64,000 nt of DNA from positions 1,054,001-1,118,000 of the forward strand of contig OZ025796.1 of assembly GCA_964019425.1 (NCBI GenBank), given 5' to 3'. Each line of letters begins with the position of its first letter. Positions within the stretch are counted from its first letter, which is position 1. The notes beneath the pieces are model-generated. The model was not told where the DNA came from. It saw nothing but the letters and a program-made list of their open reading frames with translations, and searched no databases. Both the position numbers and the translations under genes were made by a program. The DNA is from Flectonema sp. DT1601 (lineage: Eukaryota). Below are positions 200 through 50,073 of the stretch, in pieces.

Positions 200-765
200 G
201 TTCTGCTGTTCCATTTTTACGGCAGTGTACAATAAACTTTTTTCTACCTGTCTCCCTTTTTTTTTTTTTTTTTTTTTTTCCTTAAGACTTCACTCAGTGA
301 GTTTTTAGTTTCAATGGTGGTCACCATTGGAAGAAACGATTTGCCACATCTATCTGAGCACTCCAGGACGAGTTAGCAAAATCCAGTAAATATAAATTAT
401 ATTATGAGTTTATTATAAGATACTTTGCACTGATTCAAAATATAACAAAAAAGAAAAGTCATAAAAAACACAATTGTTCTGCTGTTCCATTTTTACGGCA
501 GTGTACAATAAACTTTTTTCTACCTGTCTCCCTTTTTTTTTTTTTTTTTTTTTCCTTAAGACTTCACTCAGTGAGTTTTTAGTTTCAATGGTGGTCACCA
601 TTGGAAGAAACGATTTGCCACATCTATCTGAGCACTCCAGGACGAGTTAGCAAAATCCAGTAAATATAAATTATATTATGAGTTTATTATAAGATACTTT
701 GCACTGATTCAAAATATAACAAAAAAAGAAAAGTCATAAAAAACACAATTGTTCTGCTGTTCCAT
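200..765. repeat. Tandem direct duplication, ~276-bp unit, 2 near-identical copies plus partial/diverged flanking copies
   Basis: ttctgctgttccat starts at ~201, ~477 and ~752; intervening sequences match except in homopolymer lengths; diverged tatgagtttatt..gata..tgcac at ~134-160. Confidence 0.9.
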
Positions 766-1304
766 AAAAACACTTTTTCAGGCCTTAATCTTATACTTCT
801 GGTCTCCCCTTTAGGCCTTCATCAGTAAGTTTTGGGTGACTTCATCGCAGTCATTAAAAAGTTAGTTGGCAAGTCCAGAAAAAAGTGTTTTTGCCTATCG
901 TTCACAAGGAGTAACATATGACATGATGTCCAGTTCCATAACCGATTACACAATACTCTCATTTGAGATAAGATGAAAATCATTAACACAATCACACGAT
1001 ATCTCGAGGGGGGTGAAAAGGGGAAAGGGAAAAGGGATTTGGTGGAGAAACTAACAGAACAATAAAAAGTCTTCAACGCTGCAATGCGTTTTTAGTACTC
1101 ATTCAAAAAGAATGAAAAAAAAAGAAGAAAAAAAAAAGAATGTTAACCTTTTATGAGTTAACATTCCGGTTTGCGGCAGATACAAAACAAAGGTAACGAT
1201 TTCCCAATTACATAAAATACTTGATTGTCACAAGATTGTCTGATGAAGAGTACAAACTCCATTATTATTACTTTTACTACATGTCTTGTTATTTGAATGG
1301 CTGC

Positions 1305-3287
1305 CTACAAGATTCCGTTTGACCATTTTTGAAAGCGATCGTAACCCCTTGCTCTCCTGTTTTTTTTTTTTTTTTTTTTTCGTTTTCTTGGTGAGCAGGT
1401 TATATTATTAACAAAGAAAGAGAAGAAGAATAAAACAAACCAATTATCAACAGACTGGTCAACTGCATCCCGAACCCAAACAGTTAAGTCACCGTCAGGA
1501 CTGAGTCGAGAAGCCAAAGCATCGACTGCAGCTTTTGGATCATTACCGAAGCACGGTAAAAGGGGTCCAGGTATCATCATGTCGACGACTTTAATAATTT
1601 CATCTTTGTGTTTCATCGCTTCTTTGAATGCAGCATAAACCAAAACCCTAAAATACTGAAACATATCACCAGACACACCTCCCATGACATCAACGAATTC
1701 TTGTGATAATTTAAATGGCATCGATTCGAAATTAACTCCTCCAGGGCTGTTGGAGAGCATGAATCCAAAATCAATGTGAACAACTGAACCATCGCGTCGC
1801 AATAGAATATTAGCGTTGTGCCGATCTTTAAGCTGTAGAAGGTAAGACAGGACGCTATAAGCGGCCATTGATTCGACAAAATTACGTTGAGCATCAACAT
1901 AAGCAGCTGATTGTGTATTTCCGTAAGTGAGAATCCAATAATCAGAGAGTGTTCTAACGTCTTCTGGCATTGCTTTCTTAAGACAGTCGATTGAAGTAGC
2001 GTCTGTCACTAATTCAATAATTCCGCTGTCGTTTGATGTTACAACCACTCCGTATGGATGTAGTCGAACAGGTAATGATGCTTCTCTCCAAATCCTATCA
2101 AATGAGCTGATTAATTGCATTGCCAGGACTTCTTGTCTCATATCATCACCACCTTTTATTATAACTGGGAGTACTCCCCATCCTCTTGAATTACCGAATG
2201 GAGATGATTCCTTAATTTCTTTTACAGATTGTGCCCACGAGATGCCAAAGACTTTGTCAAGTTTGGCAGTGACTGATCCAGATTCGAGTGGGGATGGAGA
2301 TTTGCTGCGTTCACGATTGATTAATTGTGAATGAAAATACCTTTCATCAACCATTATATCATCTGTGGATGTTCTTGCTGGGGTATCGCTGTCGGTGTCG
2401 GCGCCGTTTTCATCGTTTCCTTCTTCGTTGTTATCAGTTGCCTGAGTAATTGATTCGTTTTGTTGAATTGCAGGAGGATCATGAGGAGCACCCCCCTCAA
2501 CATATTCAATATAAATTAAATATGGAGCTCTCTCACGAGAGTTTAAGACTCTGCTCTTTGATGCAGGTATCCTCACAGCCCTTTGGAACTCTACATCAGA
2601 AGACCCAAGTGGGATGTTGATTGCAAATTTTGGAAGGCTGGCTGAAAGATGTCCCAAATCTTGAACGAGTTTTGCTTGTCTTTCTGATCTCGGATATTTT
2701 CTCAATTGTAAAGACAACTCTGTGATCTGTTGAATAAATGTTGTTACCCTGTTGTAATATTCACATAATCGATCTTTAGCTAACACCTCTTGCTCTACCT
2801 CCTCAGGTGTTTCCATAACTGGTTTCTTAGCTGATCGCAGAGCCCTGTTTATGGCGGCTATCTCAATCTGTTCTCGTAAGTTTACTCTCTTCGCCCTGTC
2901 GGCAGAGTGATCACTCTCAAGATACCAAATCATTTTCAAAGCAAAATTTATACTCTTTGCGCTACTTGTTAATACGTACTGTTCCACTACAGGAAGTGGT
3001 GTTGTATTCCAACACAGTAGGCACATCAATTGAGGTATAAACTGCTCTACCTCAACTAAAGGATAAGAGTGTAGTTTGTTTACTAGGTACTCAAGAATTC
3101 CTGATTCCTTATTTTTATAAGTAAATATGTATGTGACACACATTCTAGCATTGAAATGTTCACTCTCGAATAGTCTTGTTAACCCATCGATACCACCAGA
3201 TGGTGATGGTATTGGTGAGCGCGATACTGACGATGATTCAGAAGGCGGCGCTGAGTTGCTTTTTCCTGTTGGAACGCTCGATGTCAT
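1305..3287 (-). CDS. PI4KB: Phosphatidylinositol 4-kinase III beta (Pik1-like); 84-nt intron at 1357-1440
   Basis: Motifs IIKGGDDMRQEVLAMQ, LKDRHNANIL, HIDFGF and C-terminal YDRFQKWSNGIL. The FFFSFF..KKKKK stretch in the ORF is an in-frame GTTTGT..(A)nCAG intron; splicing gives DNW-RARGYD. Confidence 0.93.
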   Translation of the reverse strand: MTSSVPTGKSNSAPPSESSSVSRSPIPSPSGGIDGLTRLFESEHFNARMCVTYIFTYKNKESGILEYLVNKLHSYPLVEVEQFIPQLMCLLCWNTTPLPVVEQYVLTSSAKSINFALKMIWYLESDHSADRAKRVNLREQIEIAAINRALRSAKKPVMETPEEVEQEVLAKDRLCEYYNRVTTFIQQITELSLQLRKYPRSERQAKLVQDLGHLSASLPKFAINIPLGSSDVEFQRAVRIPASKSRVLNSRERAPYLIYIEYVEGGAPHDPPAIQQNESITQATDNNEEGNDENGADTDSDTPARTSTDDIMVDERYFHSQLINRERSKSPSPLESGSVTAKLDKVFGISWAQSVKEIKESSPFGNSRGWGVLPVIIKGGDDMRQEVLAMQLISSFDRIWREASLPVRLHPYGVVVTSNDSGIIELVTDATSIDCLKKAMPEDVRTLSDYWILTYGNTQSAAYVDAQRNFVESMAAYSVLSYLLQLKDRHNANILLRRDGSVVHIDFGFMLSNSPGGVNFESMPFKLSQEFVDVMGGVSGDMFQYFRVLVYAAFKEAMKHKDEIIKVVDMMIPGPLLPCFGNDPKAAVDALASRLSPDGDLTVWVRDAVDQSVDNWFVLFFFSFFVNNITCSPRKRKKKKKKNRRARGYDRFQKWSNGIL

Positions 3288-4330
3288 CCCACCTTCTTTA
3301 ACCAGGTTCTGAGTGGAGGGGGAGAAAACATAATAATAACAATTAACATAACAAATATATTACTTCCATCTCATGCTTGTCTATTCGATTTTTTTTTCAA
3401 ATTTTCTGAAAATGTAAATATTTTTTTAACTAAAATGACAATCACAACAACCATATCAAGAATAACATAACTTCACAAGGCGGTGGAATTCTTAAAGGGG
3501 AAATCGGGACAAGAGAGTCGAGAGGTATTAAAACAGTCTATGGGTTTTGTTTTTATATTTTTTTTTTTTTTTTTTTTTTTGACACGTGGAATAGTGAGAG
3601 TGGGTACAGTCTACACAACTTGTTCAAAAAGCACCCTATAACGGATACAAAAACAACATTGTATTATTTAAGGGGGAAAAGAAATACAGGGAAATAGCCA
3701 ACTTTTTTAAAAAAGCACAAAAAAAAAAAAAAGATACAAATCACAGCAGGAGGGTAATTTGACAAATCACAGCAGGAGGGGGGACTTGGATAAATAAATC
3801 AAGGTTAACTGCAGGAGGGGGGGGGTTAACTGTTTTGAACATATCAAAGTTAACTAACATTTAACAATTAGTAATTTATGAGATAATTAAGTACATTGTG
3901 ATGATAGTAACCTGCATACATGTATCTTTATTCCGTATGTTGTCATTCAGTGCAAGCAAATACGGAATCGTGTTACTTAATTAACTTAAATAATCATAAA
4001 AAGGATAATTTGGTTGATTTTGTAAAAATACAACTGTATAAGATTATAACACATAAAAACGGAAAAAATCGATATCGGTTAAAAACAGTACAGTGACTAT
4101 GGTGATGGAAGAGGAACAGAGGGGGGTGGAAAAAAAAAAAAAAAAAAAAAAAAAAATACTACTAACTCTTGACAGTAGACTAAAGGAGGGGCTTTACCCA
4201 ATACCAATAGCCACCCGTCTAAAACACAATTATGTTTTCACATAAATAAGTCAGGCGACATACTGATTAAACAGCCGCTTTTAATACATACATACAGAAG
4301 GCATATTTTATGCTATGAATTTAAAGACCG

Positions 4331-4365
<35 letters not shown>

Positions 4366-4923
4366 ATATAAATTTGATTGATTCCAAATAGTTCGTCTTC
4401 ATCTACGATTTGGTTCGATGTTTTTTCTTAAAAAACGTTTTGGAAAAACGTCGTCAGACACAACAAGTTTTTAAAAAAAACTATTCAGATAAACCTTAGT
4501 ACATATTTTGTTGATCGCCAGACAGTTTTATTGGCGGTACAGAGGAAAATAAAGAACCGGCTCTTAATCTGAATAATTTCTTCCCCGACATTGTCGGTGC
4601 TATATTAAAAAAAAAAATAGAGGAATAATGGGGTTGCCATGGCAATCCAGTCGTCGCTAGCACCATCTCACGTAGTTAGCTTCGCCCACTGAGAAAAACA
4701 GGTTATGAATTGCTCAAGACGACGGCCACTCAGGTAATCCACATGCAAAACAGTAAACAAAAAGAAAGAGAAAAAAAAATAGGGGGAAAATAACAGATGA
4801 AAAAAATCTAAAGGGGGGTGAGAGGGGTTGGTAACTAAAGGCAAATAGGAATACAGCTGTTGGAAGGGTAAAATAAAAAAACAGATAAAGTGGATATGCG
4901 AAAACAGTTCGAAGGAACCCGAT

Positions 4924-6924
4924 CTACGATGATACCTATTATTATTGTTGTCGTTGTTTTGGTTTTCGTTTTTTTTATTTTTTTGAATCATAAAAACAAA
5001 AGGGATAAACAATACATACCTTTAGAGTTAACCACTGTTCAAGTGCCTGTGATAATAAAGTATTATCTGACACAGTTGTACAAAGAGTAACAACTTCTGG
5101 TCTCGAATGACATGCAAGAAGACGAGCCTTTGTACGTACATCAGTAAATGAAAGTGAGAGTAACTTCTGAACAACACCCTGAAACGATTCCTCATTACCA
5201 GACATCCGAGGTGAAGGGGGACACTCCCCAGAAGGACTAGCCGCGAGGTATCTTGTAACTGGTGATGGAGATCGACAATGAAACCCATGAGTTGGAGGTC
5301 TTCCTGCTAATTGATTACTTTGAACACCTCTTGGAGAAGGTGGAACAGTACTTCCTCCTTGAGATAAACTACTCGAAGTCAGACCGTTGCTATTTGAAGA
5401 TGTGAAATTAGATGAGCGATTGCCGTCACTTCCCCGACTCTGATGCGACCAGTTCTGACCACCCGGCGATTGAACTGCTCTCGGAGTCGTTGGAACAGTT
5501 GTTTGAGCAGCTGGTTGCTGATTTTGTTGAGGCTTAGGCTGCTGCTGTTGCTGCTGCTGCTGCTGTTGTTGTTGTTGTTGTTGCTGTTGTTGTTGTTGTT
5601 GTTGTTGCTGCTGCTGCTGCTGCTGCTGTAAGACTTGCTGTTGTTGTTGTTGTTGTTGAAAGACAGCCTGTCCATTAGTAGCCGTCGGGGTATTATTTGA
5701 TGTCGTCCCTCTCGGTGTTTGTTGTTGAACATATTGAAGGTTGTTAGAACCACTACCAGTACTTCCATTATTATTAGTAACATCAATCCGCTGTTGATGT
5801 TGCTGTTGTTGTGACCCTCTTGGAGTTGGAGGTGTTCTCGGGGTTGCTAACTTCTGTGGAGTAATAACGCCAAGCCTACCCGGCATTTCATGTTTACGTC
5901 GAGGGGGAGTAGCTGCTCTCTTTGGTGGTGTTGCAGTCCTAATGTTACTTCTGGCAGTGGGTGTTGGCTGCTGATTCTGTTGGTCGACATGTCGTTGAGC
6001 TGAAGGTGTTGCTACCCTTTCAGTTCTTTCTACGGTATTTCCTCTTTGATGATGATGTTGTTGTTGTTGTTGTTGTTGTTGATTACTACCAGAGCTTCCA
6101 GGGACTGCAGTCTGAACAACATCTTCATCACCTCCCCAAGTATTAGCAATCTGTTTTAATACATCTGAAGCAGATGGTCGATCTTGAGGTCGTCTTCTGA
6201 GCATTGAAGTTATTAATTTAGCCATCTGACGACTGTATCCGTGTTTTAGTACTTCTCTACCAATGTCTTCGAGTACTGAAGACTCACTGTGAAGTACTTC
6301 AACGTTTGCTGGTCGTTGCCGAAGAGTGCAAAGCTCTAGAAAAACGATTCCTAGATTCCAGATATCAACCTTTGTAGTGTACTTACGTTGTAACATAATT
6401 TCTGGAGCAAAGTAGAAAGGAGTTCCAACAACAGTCTGCTGTCCCATTGGAGACATTAGTGTCGATAATCCAAAGTCACCAACCTTTATTGTTCCATTTT
6501 GATCAAATAAAATATTTGCAGCTTTAATGTCTCTATGACAAAAACCAGATTTATGCATAAATTCCAATGCCGTCAATACTTGTTTCATATATCTTACTGC
6601 GTGTCGTTCTTTAAAGGTTTCTCTGTTCTGTTTGTATTCTCTCATCTTGCTGTGGAGATCTCCTTTTGAGCAATACTCCATGATTAGGCATAGGTAAAGA
6701 CCTGCCTTTCCTTGATGAAGAAATGTGCCTTCGTATTTTATAATGTTTGGGTGTTTCAGCCAACCCATTACTTCAGCTTCCTTTGTTGCGAGTTCAACAG
6801 TCTCCTGGTCTACGCAAAGAATCATTTTACATACAAGTTCTCTGCCTGTTGTTTTGCTTCGAACTTTGTACACCTTGCCCTGACCCCCCTCACCGAGTTT
6901 TGCCACCCTTTCATACTTATCCAT
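4924..6924 (-). CDS. NEK/NIMA-like Ser/Thr protein kinase with polyQ low-complexity tail; intron 4936-5019
   Basis: MDKYERVAKLGEGGQG, HRDIKAANIL, KVGDFG, GTPFYFAPE. Start chosen at MDKY (ORF track starts at 6984). GTATGT donor at 5019 and TAG acceptor at 4936 give ...LTLK-VSS*. Confidence 0.88.
5538..5657 (-). repeat. CAG/CAA trinucleotide repeat encoding a long polyQ in the kinase tail
   Basis: (ctg/ttg)n on + strand; ~40 Gln in the translated ORF, interrupted by VL. Confidence 0.95.
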
Positions 6925-22159: not shown

Positions 22160-22541
22160 TGCTCAGAATATAAAAAAGCAAAAGAGAGACAAGAAAGAAA
22201 AGAAGATTCTTTCCTTTCAGAGATTTTTTAAATGCTCGGAATGAAGAAACATAAAGTGAAAATACAGGAGGGATGTGACTAAATAAATAAGGTTTTTTTT
22301 CATGGCTCGTAGGTAACCCAGTGGTCTTTGGCCACCGTCCCTGTACTGATCCTTCGCTTTATATTAACTGTGTCTTGAGATTCCTATCCAGGGAAGTCCT
22401 CCAACGGACTCAGGGCAGTTGCGCTTGTTTTTACTTGTTTACTTTATCAAAAAATAAGAAGGGCAAGTCAGAATGAAGAAAAATAAAGTGGAAAGACAGG
22501 GGGAATGTGACTAAATAAATAAGGATTTTTTTCCTTTCAGA
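22160..22541. repeat. Degenerate ~70-bp direct repeats flanking the retroelement 3' end
   Basis: gaatgaagaa..ataaagtg..acagg..gtgactaaataaataagg at 22239-22300 and 22471-22532; ttcctttcaga at 22211 and 22531. Confidence 0.75.
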
Positions 22542-23047
22542 TTTTTTTTTTTTTTTTTTTTTTTTTTGATACTGGATACGTTGTGATTCAGAGAGGGTAA
22601 TTCTCTGTTCACTCGATATCCTGTTAATGAGCGGGGTAAGTTGACCCCAAAAGGTTCGTTCATAAATAGAAAGGAATACAATAGAGAAACATAAGACTGA
22701 GCTAGATTAGTCTAATGTGCAGCAAGAGTTACGTAAAAATATAATAAATTAATCAGCATAATAGTTACAACAGCATGGTTTGACAGGTTACTCAATAAAC
22801 CTTATTCTTTGAGTTGTTGACATGTTTCTAAATCCTCAGAGAGTACATCTAAATTACATCTACGCCTAATATTTTTCCCCTCATCAACAACTGTCAGCTC
22901 CATCATCAGCATTTCTTCGCATGAACCCATCTTCTGACTCAATCATTGAACCTTGTCGTGCAGCATGAATCAGCATCCATCAGCTCCTTGCTTGCATCAG
23001 AAAATTTTCACTTTGATTGTGTACAAATTACAGTGTTCCATACGAGT

Positions 23048-26000
23048 TTAAGTTCTTTTTAGTTTTGTCCTCTGGACTTGTCCATCCCCTACGTCACATA
23101 GATATTTTAATAGCATTACCATGCCATCAAAGTCATTAGACTGTTCTATTAACTCGTCTTCTGTTAATATAAGCGAGTCTAAATTCATTTTTCTTTCTTT
23201 GTAGAATGCTGGACATTCACAAACAAAGTGTTGCACTGTGTCCTCCACTTCACAGCAGAGACACAATCCATTTCTATATCGGTTATCAATTTGTTTTGTA
23301 GTAAAGCATGCCTTACCCATTCTTATTTGTGATATTAGTATTTCCATTTCCCTGTTGAATTTCTCCGGAAATGATTCCTTCTTTCCAATCATTACCTTTG
23401 TATGTAAATATTTCATTTTTGTTGTGACAGTTTTGTAGTCCACTTTTACATTGTTTTGCTCCATTTTAACCGCTTCCGCAGCCAGAGCATCAGCTCTCTC
23501 ATTTCCTTCTATACCGCAATGTGAGAATATATGGGACAGATTAACTTTGAGCCCTAATCCACATAGCAAGTCTAAAAGAATCCAGCACTTAAGACCCAAT
23601 TCAGTTTTTTGGTAGAAGTGGCCTCTCTTTAGCTCAGATAAAGCACTCTGTGAGTCCGATAGGATTAGAACCGCCTTGTTCTCTAGTTCCTCTCTCGATT
23701 TTTCCTTAAAAGATTTCAGTGTTGCATTGAGAGCGTAATAAATTGCAAACAACTCCGACCTAAAGGAAGAGCACAGTTTCCCTGCCGGGTACGTTCCCTC
23801 TATAACTTTGTTTTTATACTTAATCACAAAAGATGATCCTCCGGTCCCTTCACTTACAGAACCGTCGGTGTATATTTTCGCAAGTATGTTGTTTTCATAT
23901 TTTTCTTTCAACTTTCTAATGTATTCTTTACAAATTTTCTGATTCTGACTGAAATTTTCGCACTTTTTTACACCAATACTTTCGTTAATTTCTATATCTG
24001 CAAAATCCTTCCAAGGAGGAAAGTATGTGGGAGGATAATGTTCTACTGGTAGGTCTGTGAGACCAATGTCACTGTAAGTTTTTACCGCAAAGCACAAGGT
24101 TTGCATATGTTTAAAGTTAATTCTTCGTTTTTCCATCAATCTTTTGGTACAAGGAGAAGTTCGCAGTCGTTCGATCTTTGCAGCCCATCTTGCTGTTTCA
24201 ACAAGATAGTAGCTACTTAATTCGGCGATGCAGGATTCTTCCAAGACTTTTTCAAATTTTGTTCCGTAGTCAGCACCTGTTATTATTTGAGCTGCCTTCA
24301 TATGCAGAGTATTCAACTTTCTCATTAGCTTTCTATTTCGTACAATGGTACTGTACAAACTCTCCATTGCGTAAGTAAAGACAGGTATGATGTATATCAA
24401 GTAAACTAATCTGATGATATTCTTTGTACATCCCCATCTCTTATCAGCCAGCATTTTTAGGAAGCGAAGCTTCTTATTCACACTTTTACATATTCGTGAT
24501 ACATGATCAGAAAACGATAGGTCATTGTCTATTTGGACACCCAGAAACCTTTCTGAGACGGTTTCTGCGAGGTACGATTTATCTTTAAATTTTATTTTAT
24601 ACTTACATTTTATAATACGCGATGTACTTGAATCAATTATCATAAGTTTTGTTTTTTCCCTTGCCAACTCAAGGTCAATGTTATTCAGATGTGCTTCCGT
24701 TTCTGAGAAAGCGGTTTGTATTTTATTCGCAAGGTTGCCAGCAGATTTATCATCTGATACCACAAACGCAATATCATCAGCATAGAGTGACAGGTTCGCT
24801 TTTTTCTCTATTATTTCAGTTATTTCATCAATGTATACGATAAACAATATACTAGCAAGTACTGTTCCCTGAGGGACTCCATTAGTGAGCTTTATGTACT
24901 TGCTAACTTTGTTATTTATTATGGTTGCAGCAGTCCTTTTGTGTAGAAAGCTTTCAACCCATCTTATATAGTATTCAGGTATTGACATATTTTTCATTCT
25001 TTCGAGTAATTTTAGGTGGTTGACAGAATCAAAGGCTTTCTTTATATCCATGAATACAACCGCAGAAATTTTCCCTCTTATTCTATTCTCATTGAGTATA
25101 TCGATTAGGTACAGAATCTGTTCCCTACACGATCTCGTTTTACGATAAGCAGCTTGATTATGACTCAGGTTTTTAACACCATTGTTGTGTTTCTCCAAAT
25201 GATACACAAGTCTGTTCTTTATTAGTTTCTCGATAAGTTTAGCGATCGCTGGGGTAAGAGCTATCATTCTGTATGAAGCTGGGTTGTGGGGATCTTTTCC
25301 TGCTTTTGCAATCGGTACCCAATAAGTCTGTTTCCAGTCATTAGGTACGACCATGTTCAACCAGGAGTTATTTAATATATCTACTAGTATTTTTTGCATT
25401 TTTGGTTTTAAGTTCTGCAGCAGTATGGCATTCATCCCATCAGGTGAAGATTTGGTACTATGTAGTCTTCCCAATTGTGTCATCACCTCAGAAGGAGTGA
25501 ACGGAACTATGTCATCTCTTATGTTAATGTTGAAGTTTTGTCTATATTTTGTTTGTACATCTTTGCCAACAATGTTTGAGAAGAAATCAGTGAAGAAATC
25601 TGCCTTTTCTTTGTCGTCGAGAATTTTGTTCATATTTGTATCATGTATGAAAGGTATCTCTACTCTTTCACACCGTCCGTCAAGTTTCCTTACATCATCC
25701 ATATACTTTAGGATGCCACCTTCGTCCGGAGATCCATCATCCGTGACACATTCTTTGATTTTTTTTTCTATGTTTCTTTCTCTACACCCTTTTACTTTAT
25801 CACATATTTGTTCATTAAGTTTCTTTAAGAGCAACATATTCTCGTCATTTAAATCACTGTCATCAGTTATTTCCTTTTGTTTCTCCTCAAAATGACGGAG
25901 TTGCTCCATCAGTTCAGAATTCCACCATTTCCTTGCTCTTTGTTTTCGCACATAGATTCTCGGAACGTGTTTGCTTTTTGCTTTTAATATTTCATTTTTA

Positions 26001-26923
26001 AATATTTTTGCTTTACTTTCGTTTATTTTAATATTTTGTATTCTTTCTGAGGCCACTTCGAGGTCATCACTGAAGTTAGTCCAATCAGCTTTAGCCCAGT
26101 TGAAGCCACTTTTTCTAACTTTTTGATAGTCAACATTTTTACATGAGTTGTGTATAACAATCATCATTGGTGAGTGGTCAGAGTTTACTGTTCCAAGGGT
26201 AGACCAAGATTCTATTTTCATATTAGTGTTTGTCAGAGTCAGGTCTGGAGATGTCATTGACTCTAACCTTGTTGGGATTGATGGCTCATTCCAACACACA
26301 AGATTGTTTTCACTTATCCATTCTGTTATGATATCACCATTGATATCGTCAATTGGTTTATCTTCCCACATGTGATTATGTGCATTAAAGTCACCCATTA
26401 TGACAATGTTGTTTTTCATATTTCCTTTCAGATCAATGCAATCCAGATTGTAATTTGGGCTCCTTGTATCATTTATAATTTGTAATGGTGGACGGTAAAT
26501 ATTATAGATAATCAAAGGTTCTTCACATTGTAATTCCACAGCTGATATTTCTAGTGAGTCGCATTCACTTTGTGTGATCACAATCTCACTGAATTTATGT
26601 TTGTTATGAACATATGTCAATAGACCACCACCTCTAACAGGTTTTCCAACTTGCCTTGGTAGAGTTCTATCTTTCCTATATGGCGTATATTCATTAATTT
26701 CGGGTGTTTTCTTTCCCTTCGTTAAAAATGTCTCTTGGATCAATAGCACATCTGGTTCATAGTTAAATACGAGAAGACGTAAGAGTTCAATTGATGTGTT
26801 CATTGATCTTGTATTTACTGAAATTATCTTAAAGTCAGCATAAGTTCTTTCAATATTAGGTTCTAGGTTCGGGACTTTTGGAGGGAGTGAGAACTGATGT
26901 TCTGCTGGGTTGTTTTCCGCATG
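23048..26923 (-). CDS. LINE ORF2: AP endonuclease, reverse transcriptase, RNase H, C-terminal CCHC finger (first Met at 26803; frame open to 26923)
   Basis: APE: KIISVN, IQETFL, MGDFNAH, SPDLTL, SDHSPM. RT: SYRMIAL, DIKKAFDSV, GVPQG, LYADD, RFLGV. RNase H: YTDGS, RSELFAI, SDSQSAL, SHCGIEGNERADALA. Finger: CLCCEVEDTVQHFVCEC. No stops or frameshifts. Confidence 0.96.
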   Translation of the reverse strand, partial: HAENNPAEHQFSLPPKVPNLEPNIERTYADFKIISVNTRSMNTSIELLRLLVFNYEPDVLLIQETFLTKGKKTPEINEYTPYRKDRTLPRQVGKPVRGGGLLTYVHNKHKFSEIVITQSECDSLEISAVELQCEEPLIIYNIYRPPLQIINDTRSPNYNLDCIDLKGNMKNNIVIMGDFNAHNHMWEDKPIDDINGDIITEWISENNLVCWNEPSIPTRLESMTSPDLTLTNTNMKIESWSTLGTVNSDHSPMMIVIHNSCKNVDYQKVRKSGFNWAKADWTNFSDDLEVASERIQNIKINESKAKIFKNEILKAKSKHVPRIYVRKQRARKWWNSELMEQLRHFEEKQKEITDDSDLNDENMLLLKKLNEQICDKVKGCRERNIEKKIKECVTDDGSPDEGGILKYMDDVRKLDGRCERVEIPFIHDTNMNKILDDKEKADFFTDFFSNIVGKDVQTKYRQNFNINIRDDIVPFTPSEVMTQLGRLHSTKSSPDGMNAILLQNLKPKMQKILVDILNNSWLNMVVPNDWKQTYWVPIAKAGKDPHNPASYRMIALTPAIAKLIEKLIKNRLVYHLEKHNNGVKNLSHNQAAYRKTRSCREQILYLIDILNENRIRGKISAVVFMDIKKAFDSVNHLKLLERMKNMSIPEYYIRWVESFLHKRTAATIINNKVSKYIKLTNGVPQGTVLASILFIVYIDEITEIIEKKANLSLYADDIAFVVSDDKSAGNLANKIQTAFSETEAHLNNIDLELAREKTKLMIIDSSTSRIIKCKYKIKFKDKSYLAETVSERFLGVQIDNDLSFSDHVSRICKSVNKKLRFLKMLADKRWGCTKNIIRLVYLIYIIPVFTYAMESLYSTIVRNRKLMRKLNTLHMKAAQIITGADYGTKFEKVLEESCIAELSSYYLVETARWAAKIERLRTSPCTKRLMEKRRINFKHMQTLCFAVKTYSDIGLTDLPVEHYPPTYFPPWKDFADIEINESIGVKKCENFSQNQKICKEYIRKLKEKYENNILAKIYTDGSVSEGTGGSSFVIKYKNKVIEGTYPAGKLCSSFRSELFAIYYALNATLKSFKEKSREELENKAVLILSDSQSALSELKRGHFYQKTELGLKCWILLDLLCGLGLKVNLSHIFSHCGIEGNERADALAAEAVKMEQNNVKVDYKTVTTKMKYLHTKVMIGKKESFPEKFNREMEILISQIRMGKACFTTKQIDNRYRNGLCLCCEVEDTVQHFVCECPAFYKERKMNLDSLILTEDELIEQSNDFDGMVMLLKYLCDVGDGQVQRTKLKRT

Positions 26924-28012
26924 TCATTCATATTCACCATTTGACATGTCCATGTCAGTGTCACCAGTAGTGCCGGTAATTTCTGTCTGACCTAGTCCTG
27001 GCAATAAAATTTCTAATTTTGTTTCAATTTCTTTGAAACGCTTCTCTATTACTTCAAAGTTTCTGTTTTGTTTCGTCGCATTGATTTCGACGTTTGCGAT
27101 TCTTTTGTTGCTTAACTCAACATTCTTTTCTATATTGTCTATTTTATTAAAATATGTCTCGTTCATTGATAATAATTTGTCGAGCTTGCTCTCAATTCCA
27201 CTATTTTCTTGTTTATTTTCCTGTTGTTTTGTCTCACCAGACTTTACTTGTGGTTCACTTTTTGCAGTATGCGTAATTGATCTAGGCTTTGGCCTTTCTG
27301 TCCGGTTACACCGCAGTGTCACACCACTTTCTGGCCATTCTAGGACCATCCTGTCCTCTGCTCCCAGGAAGTCGTCTTCTATTTTGACGATCCACTTGCC
27401 GTCAATTATTTTTATCGCTTTCGCAGCGATGTCCTTAGTCGCAAAGTTAATTGCGATATTCTCTGCTGGGAGTCCCTTTGGGATACCCTCAACTGAGAAG
27501 TACCCCAGAGATTTCACGCCAATACTTTTGCGCACCTCCTCACGGGAAGCACTCTCTACTCTCACGCCATAATTCCCTCTGCATAATGCGACGCCATATG
27601 CGTTGCTCACTTTGTTGTTTATTTCTACGGCACTTTTTAGGTCCGTTTTCCCCAGCCATATTACACTTATCACCCTATTTAAAGGGTTATCTTTTTTCAG
27701 CCTAAAAAACATACCACCCCTTCCTGATACACTCAGGAATGTCCTTTGATGTTCTTCCTTTATTTTTATCAAGATAGAAAAAATTTTGATTTTGGGGAGA
27801 CTTCCGTTTGTCTCTACTTCAGAAACATCTGGTCGAAACATGCCCAGGATCCTACTGTTATAATCCAAAGAGGTAAAAACTCTATGGAACACTGTTTTTA
27901 GTTCACTATTTTCATTCAAAAATTCTTCAGCGCTAACGTTAGCTTCAGCTAGTGCTTTTTCTGTAGTTTCAGCAATAACAACGATTCCATCGGATACATT
28001 CCAGTCAGCCAT
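26924..28012 (-). CDS. LINE ORF1, 362 aa, C-terminal coiled coil, no recognised domain
   Basis: Intact ORF directly upstream of, and in frame with, ORF2; inside the candidate TSD boundaries. Confidence 0.8.
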   Translation of the reverse strand: MADWNVSDGIVVIAETTEKALAEANVSAEEFLNENSELKTVFHRVFTSLDYNSRILGMFRPDVSEVETNGSLPKIKIFSILIKIKEEHQRTFLSVSGRGGMFFRLKKDNPLNRVISVIWLGKTDLKSAVEINNKVSNAYGVALCRGNYGVRVESASREEVRKSIGVKSLGYFSVEGIPKGLPAENIAINFATKDIAAKAIKIIDGKWIVKIEDDFLGAEDRMVLEWPESGVTLRCNRTERPKPRSITHTAKSEPQVKSGETKQQENKQENSGIESKLDKLLSMNETYFNKIDNIEKNVELSNKRIANVEINATKQNRNFEVIEKRFKEIETKLEILLPGLGQTEITGTTGDTDMDMSNGEYE

Positions 28013-28028
28013 TTTGTGTTGTGTATGT

Positions 28029-28052
28029 CAATAAAGTACAGAAAGTAGCTTT
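28029..28052 (-). other. Genomic relic of a spliced-leader (mini-exon) 3' portion
   Basis: Minus strand reads AAAGCTACTTTCTGTACTTTATTG. The diplonemid SL as I recall it ends ...AAAAGCTACAGTTTCTGTACTTTATTG. It is followed by ACATAC (not GT), 16 nt before the ORF1 ATG. Confidence 0.82.
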
Positions 28053-28057
28053 CAGAG

Positions 28058-28140
28058 CCTCTCGTAGCTCAATTGGTAGAGCGCGCGACTGTAGAACCAC
28101 TGATATCGCGCGGTCGCTGGTTCGATTCCGGCCGAGAGGA
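28058..28140 (+). tRNA. tRNA-Tyr (GTA) with 10-nt intron at 28095-28104
   Basis: Acceptor CCTCTCG/CGAGAGG + A73 (C1:G72 eukaryotic Tyr identity), D arm GCTC/GAGC, anticodon stem CGCGA/TCGCG, loop CT-GTA-G^A, T arm GCTGG-TTCGATT-CCGGC. Confidence 0.97.
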
Positions 28141-29460: not shown

Positions 29461-30386
29461 TTATGCTGTAATTTGCTTACTGTTTGCTTCACATTGGTTC
29501 TTGATACTCTCAAACCACGGAGTTCTACCGCAGTTTGCGACGGCTAATTGCACTGCGTCTAAACAGTACCTGTTTTTTTATTATTTTGAAGGCAATCTGT
29601 GGGAAACAAAATCGATTTGTTTGAGAAATGAAATTAGTACATACACTCCCTTGAGGGCACCGAATAGTGCAAGTTCGGAAGCAGTTGCTCTTTTGTTGGT
29701 TCCGATGACGTTGAATGCGCTCCTAAGAGAAGCTTCAAGGTTCGAAGCGTCTGCAGCATCTCCGTGTTGCTGTCTGTAGGTGTATGTGATTACAGGACTC
29801 ATTACTGGAAAAACGATTTTCTCAGCAAGTCCATACTGAGAAGCAACGTTATTAATAGATTCGAAGCTCGCGAACATGTTCATAGTTATAGCTGGTACTA
29901 CTTGGCTATCGATAATTTCCATTGCCTTCGCATCAGACTTGCTGTAACCACCACTGAACCGACCTCCGCTTGCAACTGCCAAAGCCTTTACGATATCTGC
30001 ACTTTCATTCACCTGGTTTCCCTTTATAATCGCAATTGGCACCTTCTTGTAATCAGAAGAAAAGTAGATCTGCTCTTTTGTAAAGTAATCAACAGTTACG
30101 TTCTTGTATGGGGTTCCGTGGTAGTCTAGAAATGCAGAAACCTTAGAGCAGTAAAAAGACGGAGGGAAGCTGTAGATTCCCACTATATCTTCTTCCTTTG
30201 AGCTCCTTACAAGTTCAGTGTGTTCCTCGTAGTGCTGTTCAGCCTGTTTTTTAAGATTATTTTATAAGAGAATTCTTTGCTGCACCAATCTGGTGAATGA
30301 CAATAACAAACCTTTTTGATTCCGAATGCATATCCTGCAAACGGCGCGGCACCAATGATGGTACCCTTCAGTATTTTTGAAAACAT
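29461..30386 (-). CDS. Prostaglandin E synthase 2-like glutaredoxin/GST-fold protein; exons 30312-30386, 29645-30243, 29461-29569
   Basis: YCSKVSAFLDYHGTPY..V..KEQIYFSSDYKKVPI..NESADIV and ELALFGALKGV..PWFE resemble PTGES2; both inferred introns keep the frame. Confidence 0.8.
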
Positions 30387-43621: not shown

Positions 43622-46600
43622 TCATCGATCCTTCCTGCGCTCCCACGTTGATGTCGGTGTTGGAGGACCTCTTGTAGGTTGGTCGTAGTGATCAATTTCT
43701 GTTATTAATATTTAATAATAAATTATCATCTCTCTCAAGTACACAAATAAAAACTACAAACCTATACCAGGAGGTGACAAAATTGAATTTGAATCCCTCC
43801 TCCCTGATATCTGACTGGAAGCGATACTCTGTTTGTTTATTATAAAAGGTGTTAAAAGTGATGAGCAAAGGGAGATAAGATTATTAACAAACACAAACCT
43901 CTTTTAAACTACTACGCCGACTAGGAAGAGGACTTTCATCGCGATATTCTGACTGAGGAAGAGTATGATTTCTATTCAATGCTGGGTACGAAGTACCTCT
44001 ATTAAGAATTGCTTCAACACCCGTTGGTGTCATAGGAGAAAGGTCAGAATCAGTATCATGAGATGCTTGTGAAGCCTGTGAAGCCCCTTCTTGAAGTGAC
44101 TGCAGTGATCTGACTGTAAACTCACCAGGACTGTGAGGACGAGGTTTTAAAAAGTTGTGATTCTCTTTTTCAGGAGGAAGAGGAACAGGTATATCTGGAA
44201 TACTAAAACTGTGTAAGACAGGACTATCACGAGATTGTGGTCCAGGAATACTTAAATTAGATTCATTAATGTCTTCACCTGAAGGAGGTTTATCTTTTTC
44301 AACAACCAGATCAAGAGCATTCAACATCGCCTCAACCATCTTTTCAATCGCTTCTACAGATCTCTGAGTGCATTCTGATTTCTCTTCCAATCTTGAGAGT
44401 CTCGATGATACTTCTGACATGTCTCTTCGTTCTCTTGTTCCAAATCTTGAAGACATCGGAGGAGGGTTCAGAGTGATATCGGGTAACTTATCCTTGTGAC
44501 GACTTGCCTTCCTTCTTATTGGACTGGAGTCCGCATCAGAGCCGTACGAAAGCTCTGATCCGTTTTTAACTTTTGATCCAGAAATGGTATCTCGAGTACT
44601 ACTGAGGTCGAGAACAAAAGGAGTATTTCCCTGAGAAATTGCATCCCCGATATGTGACTGTTCCGGTATAGAGTCTTGAGTCTGAACAGCGTCGTCGCCT
44701 TCGAATAAAACTGTCGGGGGGAGTAGTGTTAGTTCGACGCATCCTTCCATCTGGAAAACGTCCTCAACAAAATTAATCATCTGAACAGAGTCTACAGCAG
44801 TTGCGTCATCACCGTTACCGATGCTGACTAAATGCATTCCTTGACAGATACCTGAGCGAGCTGCTGCACTCTCATTTTCAACATGTTGAACAACATATCC
44901 AGAACCTCTTCCTTCATATGCCCAAGTGATTCCCAACTCATCATGCGGACCAAGGGAATCAAGTTTGAAAGCAGTCCCGTTTAGACTTTGCTGAATTTGC
45001 CGTTGGATCATTTCTTCCTGGACTGCGGCTCTGAGCTCTGGGTGTTTTCTTATTAAAAGAAAGAAATCCCCTTTATCTAATCTGAACAAATCACAGTACG
45101 TTAAAGTAGTTATTGATGCGGTTCTCTTTGAGTCTGTCAGTAGTGCTATCTCTCCAAAGAACCCACCTGGTTTTATTGTTCCCCACTTTTCACCTTCAGG
45201 TGATGTTACATCAGCGAACCCGTGACCCATGAAGAACATCTCCCTTCCTTCGTCTCCAGCTTTTATTATCCTGCTCTCTGGCTCAAGGACCAGACTCTTT
45301 AAAGCATTTGCTAACCCAACAAGACATTCAATCGGTTGCTCTTTAAACATCGGAACTTGACAAATAAATCTCATCCTCACAAACAACCCAACTCGATCTC
45401 TCATTACAGCAGGAAGGGTGTGAAGAACTTTCATAAAAGAACCTGAAACATCAGAGTGAAGTTGGTGATATTGAAATGCGAGGACTTCACAGGCTAGTTG
45501 TTCAGGGATTGAAAACTTCTTTAGAACAGAAAGAGTTTCTTTCATTTTATCAGTTCGATCAGATTCAACATCTCCTTTTTGCATTCTCGATGAGATTTTA
45601 CTGATAACGATACCGTGGATTACAACACCAGCAACAAATAGAACTGAAGCAAACAGTTTTTTTGCCTCTGTTTCAACAGGTATGTCACCATACCCAACTG
45701 ATGTCACTGTGTACAGAGTCCAATAGAGAGCAGTGATGTAAGAATATTGATCATCTGTAGATCCTCGAGGACCACCTCTATTGAGTAGTATCCATAAAAC
45801 TGTAATCATATTTACAGCGAGAGCGCAGTAGAATGTTAATCTCAACATTGGAACGATAGTGTATTGATAACTAACTGAGAATGGAGCCAGTTTCACAGGT
45901 GTAATAACCTGAAAGAAGTGACGTATTCCAACAAACTTAAACATTCTTAAGTGAGCTAACGATAACCAAATCCAACCGTCTGCGTAATCATTTCCTAATA
46001 TTAACATACAGAGGAGGTCTAGAGGCAATGCTGCTAGGAAATCGAATAAAAACCCATTTTTAAGATAATGCCAACGAACTCTACTTGGAGTATCAACCAA
46101 CATTCCGGTGTTTAAATCGAGATACGCGGTATTGAATCGAACAAAAATATCCAACACGAAGACGATCGATGTAATGATGTCGAGAACGAGGTGGCCAATC
46201 TCACCTGCGAGAAGAGTCTCTCTTTTCATAGAGTACTGGCAAGGTATGAATATTCCATAATATAAAACACATAATAATAAAAGTGTGTCCCAATACCACA
46301 TTGCCATATCATCAGGTTGGAAGATATGACTTCGCAATGCTTTATTTAAAGATTCTATTGTGTTTTCACTCTTTGCGAGTATTGTTCCATCTTGTCCTTT
46401 TCCACCAGGAGTATATTTAGACTGTCTCGGTGTTAATGGAGGATGAGAACCTTGAGATGATCTTTTTGAATTATCACTTTTACAGCTCGCTAATGGTTTT
46501 AAATTCTCTTCAGTTAATCGTCCAGATGCGCTTTTCGTACTTTTCTTTAAGAAACCCATATCCGATGATTCAGAAAACCCACTTGTTGCTCTTTGAGGTA

Positions 46601-46691
46601 ACTGAGTACTACCAGCGCTTAGACTTGACATTTTATCTAATTTATCAAGAGACCCCTCCGGTGGAGAGGTATTAATATTCCCAGTATCCAT
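43622..46691 (-). CDS. Cyclic-nucleotide-binding-domain K+ channel (KCNH/HCN/plant Shaker-like) with PDZ-like domain; paralog 1; introns 43829-43898 and 43699-~43767
   Basis: TM helices, pore YWTLYTVTSVGYGD, C-linker, CNBD FFGEIALL..KRTASI. Start at MDTG inferred; spliced 3' exons end WERRKDR*. Confidence 0.9.
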
Positions 46692-47321
46692 ATCAATACA
46701 CGATGTCGACGCTGTCGGTACCGTCAGGAGGGACGTCGATGACCTGCCGTGAGATGCGATTGTGCAGCAGGAGTGCCACAAAAGTGCGGCGCGATCTGTT
46801 GAAGGAGGGGGGTGAAAATATAAAATTCACAAATATTCGAATAATGACATAAAACAATTGTGATCTCAAGAAGGATGTAAACGGGGGGAATGAATAGATC
46901 GTGCCTGAGAATTCAAAACTAACACACAAAAAAAAAGTAAAAGGTGTAAATAAAAACAGAAGTCTCCAACAAGAAACAACACAACAGAGTTGTTTTCTCA
47001 AATATTAAGAACTATCTTTATCTGGTGACCATCACAACAGGAGAGTTACTCGGAACGGTTCGTAAGATTTGACAAAAGTCAATCAAAAGATATTCCGCAC
47101 AAAAACACAAAAAAAGTATTCACAACCAGCTGCCTTAAAAATATTTTTTTTTATTTTATTTTTTCCTTCGTTCTTCAGGTGTTTTAAATGAACGAGGCAG
47201 CAAGGGAAGAAAACGAACACAAATTGACACACGACAAGTATATTAATATGTTGTACAATAAAATGAACTGAACAACTACTCAACATCACCTCAATACTGA
47301 CATCACATTCCCTAATTAGAA

Positions 47322-50073
47322 TCACAACTGAACTTCAAACTCAGGTTGTGGTATATGTTGATCCTGCAGTGCTCTGATTTCTTCAACGTGTTTCATAAGA
47401 ACTGCACCTATTTTGTGTTTTTAGTTATCTTTTACGTTAATTGAGAAAACAAAAACTAACATACTTGGAGGTGGCATCAGAGGAGGTACAGGATCAAGAC
47501 TCCGCTCTACTAGAAACTCTGAAGCGCTACCAATGTCTTGTGTGTCAGCTAGTGAGGTTCCTTTACAAGGGATTTCTAAGTACTCAGTTGAGGCACTCTG
47601 TTTGGTTTGAATTTAAAATAATATTATCATCGAGGGAATGAGGGAGGTGATAAGAGTCATGACATACAAGCATGTGACTACCTTCATGGAAGTTATTAAA
47701 ATTGAATGCGTTTCCTAATCTGTTCGGGAGTGATGTGCGACGGTTTTTATTTTCCACATCCGAATGGTTTTTTTCAGGATTTTCATTCCTCTCAACAGAA
47801 AGGTCAAGTGAGTTCACAAGACTCCTAACGTACGCTTCAATACGGACAACAGACTGCGACATCGTTTCCGTTTTGAGTTCCAGTCTGCTGAGCCTGCAGG
47901 AGACATCAGCACTTGATGGAGATCTCGTTGACGTCATTTGTTTGAAACTCATTTTTTGATTCAAGTCGTTTACTTTAATATCCGGTAACTTAACACCAAA
48001 ACTCCCACGAGGTCCTACTGGCTGAGTTTGTCTCCTCCTTGGGCTTGGAGAAATATCAGACGACTGACTAACTTCATCATAAGAATGACAACCTTGAAGT
48101 GGTGATTGTAATGATCGAGGTGATAGTGGCGGGGATTCAATAGCCATCGGTTCTCTTAATGAATCGTCTTCATATCCAATCATTAAGTCAGGTGGTAAAA
48201 GTGTTAAACGAATGTGACCAATTTCTTGAAAAACTGTTTCCAAATAATCAATTTGATCATTTGAGTCGATCAAGTCGTCTTCAATCGCAACCAAATGCAT
48301 TCCCTGAACAATTCCAACTCGATAAGCAGCACCACTCTCTGCGATATCTGTTACTATAAATCTGTCTGAATATGTTCCCCATACAACACCAACAACATCC
48401 CCAGGTGAAGACTGTTCAAGGTGATACACACAGGATTCTCTGTTCTGTTGGACCTGTCGGTGAATCATTTCTTCACGAACAGCATTACGAAGTTCTGGGT
48501 GTTTGCGTATCAATTTAAAGAATTCATTCTTATCTAATCTGAATAAATCACAATACGTTAAAGTAGTTATTGAGGCTGTTCTCTGCGAGTCTGTCAGTAG
48601 TGCTATCTCTCCAAAGAACCCACCTGGTTTTATAATTCCCCACAGATGTCCGTCAGGTGCTGTCACATCAGCGAACCCGTGACCCATGAAGAACATCTCC
48701 CTTCCTTCGTCTCCAGCTTTTATTATCCTGCTCTCTGGCTCAAGGACCAGACTCTTTAAAGCATTTGCTAACCCAACAAGACATTCAATCGGTTGCTCTT
48801 TAAACATCGGAACTTGACAAATAAATCTCATCCTCACAAACAACCCAACTCGATCTCTCATTACAGCAGGAAGGGTGTGAAGAACTTTCATAAAAGAACC
48901 TGAAACATCAGAGTGAAGTTGGTGATATTGAAATGCGAGGACTTCACAGGCTAGTTGTTCAGGGATTGAAAACTTCTTTAGAACAGAAAGAGTTTCTTTC
49001 ATTTTATCAGTTCGATCAGATTCAACATCTCCTTTTTGCATTCTCGATGAGATTTTACTGATAACGATACCGTGGATTACAACACCAGCAACAAATAGAA
49101 CTGAAGCAAACATCTGTTTCTGTTGAGTATCAACAGGTATGTCACCATACCCTACTGATGTCACTGTGTACAGAGTCCAGTACAACGCTTTGATGTAAGG
49201 GTATTCACTTGTACTGATTCCTCTTGGTCCTTCCTTGTTGATTAGTATCCAACAAACTGTTATTAAATTTATCGCTAATGCACAATAAAATATCAACCTA
49301 ATTATAGGAACGACTGTATACTGATAACTAACTGAGTGTGGACCAAGTTTGACGGGTGTCACAACTTTGAATAATTTCGTTGTAGCTCTCAATTTAAATA
49401 ATCTTAAATGTGACAATGAAAACCAAACCCATCCATCGGCATAACCTTCTCCTAAGAATACCATCGTGAATGTGTCTAACGGACATGCTGCTAAGAAATC
49501 CCAAATAAAATCAGAATTAAGATACAACGATCTTATCTTACAAGGCTCATCAACAAGCTCTCCCGTCAGTTCATTTAACACAGCCGTATTAAATCCAAAA
49601 TAGATATCAATAATGTAAATAATACTACTTATCGATTCTATTATTATGTGACCGACTTCACTGCACACGAGATCTGTTCTTTTAATTGTGTACTGGACAG
49701 GTATAAATATAGAGTAATAAGCAATAGATATCAGGAGGATGGTATCCCAGTACCATTTATTCATATCGTCTGGTTGATATACGTCTGTTTGAAGTGCTTC
49801 TGACAGTCTTTTTATTGTTTCTGGAGTCTTTTCCAACACGGCGTATTGTCTGTATGTCTTTTCTGAAACTACTGATGAGCGATGTCGTTTGAGAATACTT
49901 CCTCTCCTACCTCCTCCAGGAGACAGATCGACGTCATCTCTGGGTGAACAAGTGTAGCTAATACAATCACTTTGAACTGTGTTGAACGATCCTTTTTTTT
50001 GTTCATAGGAATTACTTCCCAACCTCATTGGAGAAGGTGTTAATATACCGTTTTCTGACACATCTCCTGCCAT
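47322..50073 (-). CDS. Cyclic-nucleotide-binding-domain K+ channel with PDZ-like domain; paralog 2; introns 47598-47667 and 47408-47464
   Basis: Same pore (SVGYGD) and CNBD motifs; tandem paralog of the adjacent channel; spliced 3' exons end PEFEVQL*. Confidence 0.9.

What the first reader, a model, noticed from the sequence alone, without database searches (positions are those of the whole stretch)
22534..28140. SL-capped, polyadenylated LINE inserted head-to-head at the start of a tRNA-Tyr gene
Seen: the intact element runs from an SL-like 24-mer (28029-28052, minus) to a 26-nt poly(A). It is bounded by ctttcaga on both sides, and the right copy ends 1 nt before tRNA +1. The SL-like sequence is joined to a 16-nt 5'UTR rather than to a GT intron, leaving no room for an internal promoter or an Ingi/L1Tc-type 77-nt HDV-ribozyme leader. 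Established: SL is added to euglenozoan mRNAs by trans-splicing, and tRNA-gene-targeting retroelements exist (Dictyostelium TRE5, yeast Ty3 at the Pol III start site). Inference: a promoterless LINE that is transcribed within the host polycistron (it is co-oriented), gets its 5' end by trans-splicing, and may target Pol III start sites. I know of no described euglenozoan element with this combination.
Basis: partly seen in the sequence, partly recalled or inferred. Interest (0 to 1): 0.92.

Follow-up and report, generated by a model that had tools for sequence, protein, structure and literature searches.

The report
Leader-capped LINE at a tRNA start
An intact jumping gene of the LINE type, in what is likely a diplonemid (marine protist) genome, starts with a copy of the short leader that such cells splice onto their messenger RNAs and sits back-to-back one base before a tyrosine tRNA gene; it was likely copied from a trans-spliced RNA and probably belongs to a group that aims at tRNA gene starts.

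Summary
Observation confirmed. A 5.5-kb two-ORF non-LTR retrotransposon (APE-RT-RNase H) runs on the minus strand from a spliced-leader (SL) piece to a 26-nt poly(A). An 8-bp duplication bounds it; the right copy ends 1 nt before an intron-containing tRNA-Tyr. The 24-mer equals the 3' part of a published euglenozoan SL minus 2 nt, joined at the exon end to a 16-nt UTR. Closest named relatives are from Flectonema and Diplonema. The family is young (ORF1 identical on 7 contigs). No genome or reads were available, so other junctions were read only from protein calls: of three readable 5' junctions, one (a sister family) abuts an antisense tRNA-like gene at the same spacing (8 versus 9 nt); two follow A-runs and lack SL. 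Trans-spliced template: likely (0.8). tRNA-start targeting: probable (0.6). Promoterless: untested. Both halves have precedents (dinoflagellate SL relics; Dictyostelium NLTR-A, 2-6 bp upstream of tRNAs). My searches found neither for a euglenozoan APE-type LINE, and trypanosome Ingi/L1Tc RNAs are unspliced. Extra: the endonuclease's first strand lies upstream of ORF2's ATG, implying stop read-through or a non-AUG start.

The parts
22534..22541 (.). left copy of the 8-bp target-site duplication
   Evidence: chance about 0.002
22542..22567 (-). 26-nt poly(A) tail
22568..23047 (-). 480-nt 3' UTR
23048..26803 (-). ORF2, 1251 aa from first ATG: APE endonuclease, reverse transcriptase, RNase H, C-terminal cysteine/histidine knuckle; catalytic motifs present
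   Evidence: Pfam PF03372/PF14529, PF00078 E 1e-36, PF00075 E 1e-10; motifs
26804..26923 (-). 120-nt spacer, open in frame with both ORFs; encodes the first endonuclease strand with an Asn invariant in 7 of 7 aligned rows; site of a 2A-like motif in relatives
   Evidence: Pfam match extends from profile position 18 to 3 when the spacer is added; alignment; open only in this frame, chance 0.04
26924..28012 (-). ORF1, 362 aa, no Pfam family; predicted RRM-like domains plus a C-terminal coiled coil; homologues in Flectonema, Diplonema papillatum and Amphidinium
   Evidence: model of residues 1-241 pLDDT 80; VIA Z 5-6.3 to RRM folds, middling; long helix 270-336 in a low-confidence model
28013..28028 (-). 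16-nt A/C-rich 5' UTR
28029..28052 (-). 3' part of a spliced-leader exon (24 of 26 nt, one 2-nt gap); 28049-28052 shared with the duplication
   Evidence: published SL table; SL RNA genes L009, L018, L079
28049..28056 (.). right copy of the 8-bp target-site duplication, ending 1 nt before tRNA +1
28058..28140 (+). tRNA-Tyr(GTA) gene with a 10-nt intron (28095-28104), followed by a T5 terminator
   Evidence: Rfam 58.1 bits; fold z -3.06; identity read from the sequence

Best explanation
This is a recent, full-length insertion of a two-ORF APE-RT-RNase H LINE whose template RNA was likely capped by the host's trans-splicing, and which probably was steered to the start of a tRNA gene. Shown: element anatomy, 8-bp duplication, SL piece joined at its exon end to the UTR, position 1 nt before tRNA +1, many near-identical copies. 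Inferred steps: (1) a source copy is read through by host Pol II and receives the SL at an acceptor 16 nt before ORF1; (2) ORF1p binds the RNA, and ORF2p is made by read-through of the ORF1 UGA or from a non-AUG start in the spacer; (3) the endonuclease nicks the tRNA sense strand between -2 and -1 and the other strand 8 nt upstream, a position probably set by the bound Pol III machinery rather than by sequence; (4) reverse transcription from the poly(A) stops inside the SL, and a 4-nt match between SL and target joins the 5' end. The tRNA gene stays whole.
For: SL match to a published euglenozoan SL and to SL RNA genes, junction at the exon end, no GT. Duplication, tail and domains. Young family: 14 ORF1 calls, 13 reaching the start codon, one sequence on 7 contigs; 22 ORF2 members, the 15 listed 95-100% identical. 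Second junction: P0241, a 5'-truncated ORF2 of a sister family on a 95,082-bp contig, begins with 29 foreign residues that are the only 1 of 21,722 30-residue windows compatible with antisense tRNA A and B boxes at tRNA spacing; shuffles 40 of 20,000; T, D and anticodon stems pairable 5/5, 4/4, 5/5; 8 nt between +1 and the element against 9 here. The same 13-nt target sequence stands unoccupied at 22210, away from a tRNA. Copies cluster on small contigs (three ORF1 calls on a 26,429-bp contig). Precedent for the geometry: NLTR-A, 2-6 bp upstream in 16 copies.
Against: Only one junction is seen as DNA. Of the 3 readable 5' junctions among 54 family proteins, 2 (P0132, P0137) follow lysine runs (A-rich DNA) with no SL and no tRNA signal. 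P0241 belongs to a family only 44% identical in RT, is read by back-translation, pairs only 2 of 4 testable acceptor positions and would have C at position 33, so it may be a pseudogene or tRNA-derived SINE. The SL piece lacks an AG present in 134 of 134 matches. In this copy the SL has replaced the acceptor, so it cannot be re-spliced at the same site; the nearest pyrimidine-rich AGs free of upstream ATGs lie at -139, -209 and -222, beyond the tRNA.
Confidence: 0.55

Rival explanations
1. Ordinary untargeted LINE: the SL piece is the expected relic of any trans-spliced RNA that is retroposed, and the landing next to tRNA-Tyr is chance or mild preference for open chromatin.
For: SL relics mark over 20% of genes in Symbiodinium (PMC5585692); 7 of 134 SL matches are truncated exons inside contigs; P0132 and P0137 are not at tRNA starts; scans select odd single cases.
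Against: P0241 repeats orientation and spacing at another tRNA-like gene; an identical 13-nt site 320 bp away is empty.
Confidence: 0.25
2. Hard-coded leader: the SL-like sequence was captured once and is now a fixed 5' end of the family, acting as an SL mimic or promoter; the AG was lost once.
For: The missing AG is unlike any database SL (0 of 134 AG-less); gene-dense virus-like contigs carry DNA-encoded full SL exons before genes; SL relics were proposed as promoters in dinoflagellates (PMC5585692).
Against: The relic is cut at the junction with 4-nt microhomology, as expected for ordinary 5' truncation; P0132 starts at the ORF1 ATG without it.
Confidence: 0.12
3. A source copy sits in an SL RNA gene right behind the exon and is transcribed from the SL promoter (CRE/SLACS-like), so the leader is added in cis; or the reverse transcriptase jumped onto a free SL exon.
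For: CRE-clade elements insert in SL RNA genes; L062 shows an RT ORF behind a truncated SL exon and L072 an SL piece right after an APE-RT-RNase H element; an SL RNA gene lies beside a tRNA cluster in L079.
Against: This element has APE and RNase H, not a restriction-like endonuclease; no SL sequence or GT intron follows the poly(A); no copy in an SL gene was seen.
Confidence: 0.08

Closest known systems
NLTR-A of Dictyostelium purpureum (PMC5006619, passages and section 11; PMC5911963, passages)
   Same: [quoted passage not shown]
   Different: Amoebozoan host; no SL; ORFs overlap by 13 bp rather than being in frame; targeting shown for 16 copies there, for one DNA junction plus one inferred here; kinship not tested
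TRE5-A of D. discoideum and yeast Ty3 (PMC5911963, passages)
   Same: Upstream of tRNA genes; TRE5 in opposite orientation to the tRNA; Ty3 at the Pol III start
   Different: TRE5 lands 40-54 bp upstream, lacks RNase H and has a promoter module; Ty3 is an LTR element landing about 15 bp before the mature +1
Ingi / L1Tc of trypanosomes (PMC12278014 section 4; PMC1874656, PMC5814959, PMC3708506 passages)
   Same: Euglenozoan host group; APE-RT-RNase H; poly(A) and duplication; 2A-like peptide just before APE in relatives of this element (P0003, P0236, P0243)
   Different: Ingi has one ORF, a 77-nt promoter/ribozyme and unspliced RNAs (0 of 19 RIME/ingi cDNAs had the SL); this element has an ORF1, no such leader and an SL at its 5' end
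CRE clade: SLACS, CZAR, CRE1/2 (PMC12278014 section 4; PMC5814959 passages)
   Same: LINE with SL exon sequence at its end in a euglenozoan
   Different: There the SL is the target gene and the endonuclease is restriction-like; here the SL piece lies inside the duplication, on the 5' side only
Relict-SL retrocopies of dinoflagellates (PMC5585692, passages)
   Same: Truncated SL in DNA in front of an ORF as the mark of a retroposed trans-spliced RNA
   Different: Described for host genes in another phylum; here it is the autonomous element itself

Membership tests
Ingi clade | APE, RT and RNase H in the long ORF | tested here: met
Ingi clade | single ORF, no ORF1 | tested here: not met
   362-aa ORF1 conserved in sister families; definition from PMC3708506
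Ingi clade | 77-nt Pr77 promoter / HDV-like ribozyme at the 5' end | tested here: not met
   36-40 nt before the ATG; no Rfam ribozyme; fold z 0.63
Ingi clade | 2A-like peptide before APE | tested here: inconclusive
   near-consensus in P0003, P0236, P0243; degenerate in P0104; lost in this copy; activity untested
Ingi clade | RT groups with Ingi/L1Tc | not tested
   no labelled Ingi/L1Tc sequence among the hits; the quick tree shows a diplonemid group of 5 rows at support 100 with unresolved neighbours
CRE clade (SLACS/CZAR/CRE) | restriction-like endonuclease after RT | tested here: not met
   APE before RT, RNase H after it
CRE clade (SLACS/CZAR/CRE) | inserted in an SL RNA gene | tested here: not met
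   no SL sequence or GT intron behind the poly(A)
tRNA-gene-targeted non-LTR elements (TRE5, NLTR-A) | upstream of a tRNA gene, 5' end towards it | tested here: met
tRNA-gene-targeted non-LTR elements (TRE5, NLTR-A) | fixed distance in most copies | tested here: inconclusive
   this copy 9 nt and P0241 8 nt from +1 to element; P0132 and P0137 follow A-runs; no genome
tRNA-gene-targeted non-LTR elements (TRE5, NLTR-A) | needs B box and Pol III factors | not testable with these tools
   bench test
relict-SL retrocopy | SL 3' part joined at the exon end to a 5' UTR, inside a duplication with poly(A) | tested here: met
relict-SL retrocopy | relic equals the host species' own SL | not testable with these tools
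   no genome; 2-nt gap against all known variants

The most novel reading that the evidence does not exclude
A diplonemid clade of promoterless LINEs that lives by two host machines: trans-splicing defines the 5' end of its RNA (the opposite of trypanosome Ingi/L1Tc), the Pol III complex positions it within 1-2 bp of the mature tRNA start, and ORF2 is made by UGA read-through over a decaying 2A site. It would be an independent origin of tRNA-gene targeting in Discoba.
Probability: 0.4. Interest if true: 0.8.

Novelty: new variant of a known kind. Interest (0 to 1): 0.63.

Why it matters
Trypanosome LINEs keep their 5' ends by avoiding trans-splicing (own promoter plus ribozyme). An active euglenozoan LINE copied from SL-capped RNA shows a second solution and raises a testable puzzle: each such copy loses the splice acceptor it was made from. 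If the clade also aims at tRNA starts, it adds an independent origin of Pol III-directed insertion outside amoebae and fungi, with near base-pair precision, in a group (D. papillatum) that can be transformed (recalled). SL relics would also date and orient retroposition events in diplonemid genomes.

Tried and rejected
No genome held. Sequencing runs: none was listed. ORF1 scan of metagenome contigs: 118 pattern matches, 0 confirmed. SL pattern scans gave no copy of this family: tblastn of 8 query proteins on 125 loci hit only L072, a distant LINE; the metagenome scan stopped after 20 of 64 parts. Two junction-spanning ORFs were not in the protein collection. Earlier scan notes by place and by sequence: none. 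ORF1: first model unusable (pLDDT 36); ESM Atlas best 0.85, lead only; no Pfam or PDB sequence match; Foldseek no match at E 0.001. The careful tree did not finish; only the quick tree on 58 chosen rows is cited. Rejected: a pre-existing SL RNA gene at the site (its +1 would fall inside the tRNA; no GT intron behind the tail); tRNA as cargo (outside the duplication; the 66-bp paralogue of the left flank at 22236-22301 also runs into a short tRNA-like start); Pol III read-through from the tRNA as source of element RNA (wrong strand; 16 T4+ runs); tRNA-Ile call of ARAGORN (non-canonical intron, wrong identity bases). A small RNA at 22302-22440 found no support (z 0.57; Rfam none). Additional file 1 of PMC10161547 was too large to read and may hold diplonemid SL sequences or element descriptions.

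Full report
What is there. The window is 38.5% GC; 19 of its 20 ORFs of 150 aa or more lie on the minus strand, the twentieth being antisense inside ORF2. Between 22542 and 28048 lies a minus-strand element: 20 nt of SL-like sequence, a 16-nt UTR, ORF1 (362 aa), a 120-nt spacer, ORF2 (1251 aa), a 480-nt UTR and 26 A. ORF2 carries APE, RT and RNase H with catalytic motifs and a terminal cysteine/histidine knuckle. The 8-mer CTTTCAGA flanks it at 22534 and 28049 (chance about 0.002). One base further begins an 83-nt tRNA gene (Rfam 58.1 bits). ARAGORN reads it as Ile through an odd intron; the sequence shows a Tyr anticodon, C1-G72 and A73 (Tyr identity bases, recalled) and a 10-nt intron at 37/38.

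Host and family. The nearest named relatives of ORF2 are two Flectonema neradi transcripts (58-60%); ORF1 has relatives in F. neradi, Diplonema papillatum (multi-copy hypothetical proteins) and the dinoflagellate Amphidinium. The host is therefore likely a diplonemid; no housekeeping gene was tested. In the protein collection three related families stand on long contigs that appear to belong to the same assembly (inferred from shared contig lengths): family A (this one; ORF1 14 calls, one sequence on 7 contigs; ORF2 cluster 22 members, 15 listed, 95-100% identical), B (84%, 10 members) and C (44% in RT, 18 members, 15 listed). A quick tree on 58 chosen RT rows joins A, B, C and the Flectonema pair at support 100 among other RNase H-bearing elements; it held no labelled Ingi or I reference. 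ORF1 residues 1-241 fold with pLDDT 80 and resemble RRM domains at middling Z (5-6.3).

The leader. The 24-mer equals the last 26 nt of 'Euglenozoa 14' in the SL table of PMC3795323 (passage; the table names no species, its Diplonema origin is recalled) with one 2-nt gap. The same exon end followed by GT occurs in 17 SL RNA gene matches among 134 matches in 125 loci. In the window the exon end joins the UTR without GT, the product that trans-splicing makes. Four bases are shared with the duplication, as in microhomology-joined 5' ends. Against: all 134 matches keep the AG that this copy lacks (the metagenome scan covered 20 of 64 parts), so the gap is a species variant, a lesion or an assembly error. 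L106 shows a second SL piece starting right after that AG, which fits re-splicing at the internal AG, as proposed for dinoflagellate relics (PMC5585692, passages).

Targeting. With no genome I read junctions from gene calls. Of 54 family proteins, 4 have a foreign N-terminus; one is the element's own ORF overlap, three are junctions. P0241 (family C) is ORF2 from residue 218 on, 100% identical to an intact copy, preceded by 29 residues that can be back-translated to an antisense tRNA B box and A box 54 nt apart; it is the only such case in 21,722 windows, 40 of 20,000 shuffles reach it, and T, D and anticodon stems pair fully (shuffled middles 151 of 3,000), the acceptor only 2 of 4. Eight bases separate +1 from the element, against nine here; the two flanks share no sequence. 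This fits a second head-to-head insertion set by position, but a tRNA pseudogene or antisense SINE cannot be excluded. P0132 (family A) and P0137 (family B) follow lysine runs with no SL and no tRNA boxes: they are either tandem copies behind another tail or insertions elsewhere. The 13-nt empty-site sequence also stands unoccupied at 22210.

Expression. Only 36-40 nt precede the ATG, with no structure or Rfam ribozyme; a promoter inside ORF1 is not excluded. This copy has lost its acceptor to the SL; candidate acceptors without upstream ATG lie at -139, -209 and -222, beyond the tRNA, and a pyrimidine-rich AG lies 100 nt behind the tail. Daughters of this copy would thus carry antisense tRNA, a testable prediction. 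ORF1 and ORF2 are in one frame, split by a single TGA; the spacer is open only in that frame (chance 0.04) and encodes the first endonuclease strand: Pfam coverage grows from profile position 18 to 3 and the Asn there is invariant in 7 of 7 rows. Relatives have a 2A-like motif at this spot, as Ingi/L1Tc do (PMC3708506, passages); it is degenerate in B and lost in A. Read-through or a non-AUG start is inferred, not shown.

Comparison with what is known. Ingi/L1Tc use a 77-nt promoter and ribozyme and make unspliced RNA (PMC1874656 passages; PMC5814959 passages; PMC12278014 passages and section 4). CRE-clade elements insert into SL genes with a restriction-like nuclease. NLTR-A of D. purpureum has APE-RT-RNase H and lands 2-6 bp before the mature tRNA in 16 copies (PMC5006619 passages and section 11; PMC5911963 passages). 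The D. papillatum genome paper lists LINE-1-, SLACS-, R2- and jockey-like ORFs and intron-containing tRNAs, without targeting or SL caps in the passages seen (PMC10161547; its Additional file 1 was unreadable). PMC7049700 (passages) gave no SL. Ten searches (open-access library only, listings) showed no euglenozoan APE-type LINE with an SL cap or tRNA targeting. Unchecked scan notes report SL-capped LINEs in a dinoflagellate and a Euglena and tRNA-adjacent LINEs in fungi, which makes each half look recurrent rather than unique.

Verdict. Real and well formed. It works like a trans-spliced, probably NLTR-A-like tRNA-start-directed LINE; it is not an Ingi or CRE member by the features tested. 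SL-capped template 0.8, targeting 0.6, whole model 0.55. New variant of a known kind; interest 0.63.

Noticed in passing
L001-L004, L126-L133 (IMGVR_UViG_3300046534_001516 and three other viral contigs); also L061, L065, L112, L121: Gene-dense, giant-virus-like contigs carry full 39-nt euglenozoan SL exons in their DNA, not followed by GT, about 20 nt behind an A-rich promoter-like motif and before an ATG: at least 6 on the 237,777-bp contig. Likely a protist giant virus that hard-codes or captured the host leader; L132 carries a kinetoplastid-type leader. One paper search listed no description.
   Followed up: partly
window 26804-26926: Single in-frame TGA between ORF1 and ORF2, open spacer encoding the first APE strand; 2A-like motif intact in family C and Flectonema, decayed in B, lost in A; one family B copy (P0104) reads through.
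   Followed up: yes
L062:20-44 and 483-6542: RT-bearing ORF of over 2000 codons (Pfam RVT_1; CRE-like motifs by eye) behind a truncated SL exon and a long inverted repeat.
   Followed up: partly
L072:694-718: Truncated SL exon joined to a short UTR and ORF, about 820 nt downstream of an intact APE-RT-RNase H element on the same strand, directly after an A-run.
   Followed up: partly
L079:1-1277: Cluster of 8 tRNA genes followed 115-130 nt later by an SL RNA gene.
   Followed up: no
16 of 134 SL matches (e.g. L006, L008, L016, L028) and L106: Tandem leaders on transcript-like contigs; may be recycled retrogenes or library artefacts.
   Followed up: no
window 22236-22301 versus 22468-22533; 22210-22222; 26421-26432: 66-bp, 89% duplicate of the tRNA upstream flank followed by a short tRNA-like start; a second, empty copy of the target 13-mer; and 12 of its 13 bases inside ORF2 itself.
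   Followed up: partly
window 50601-53763: Tandem array of about 300-bp units between genes.
   Followed up: no
window 29581-30386: GST-N-domain gene split by a probable GT-AG intron of about 65 nt near 30250-30310 (or a frameshift).
   Followed up: partly
window 43884-50073: Two tandem cyclic-nucleotide-gated ion channel paralogues (85% DNA identity over 1 kb).
   Followed up: no
P0125 (family A ORF2 fragment): ORF2 breaks off near residue 460 into an 8-residue repeat, as an 8-nt satellite would give.
   Followed up: no
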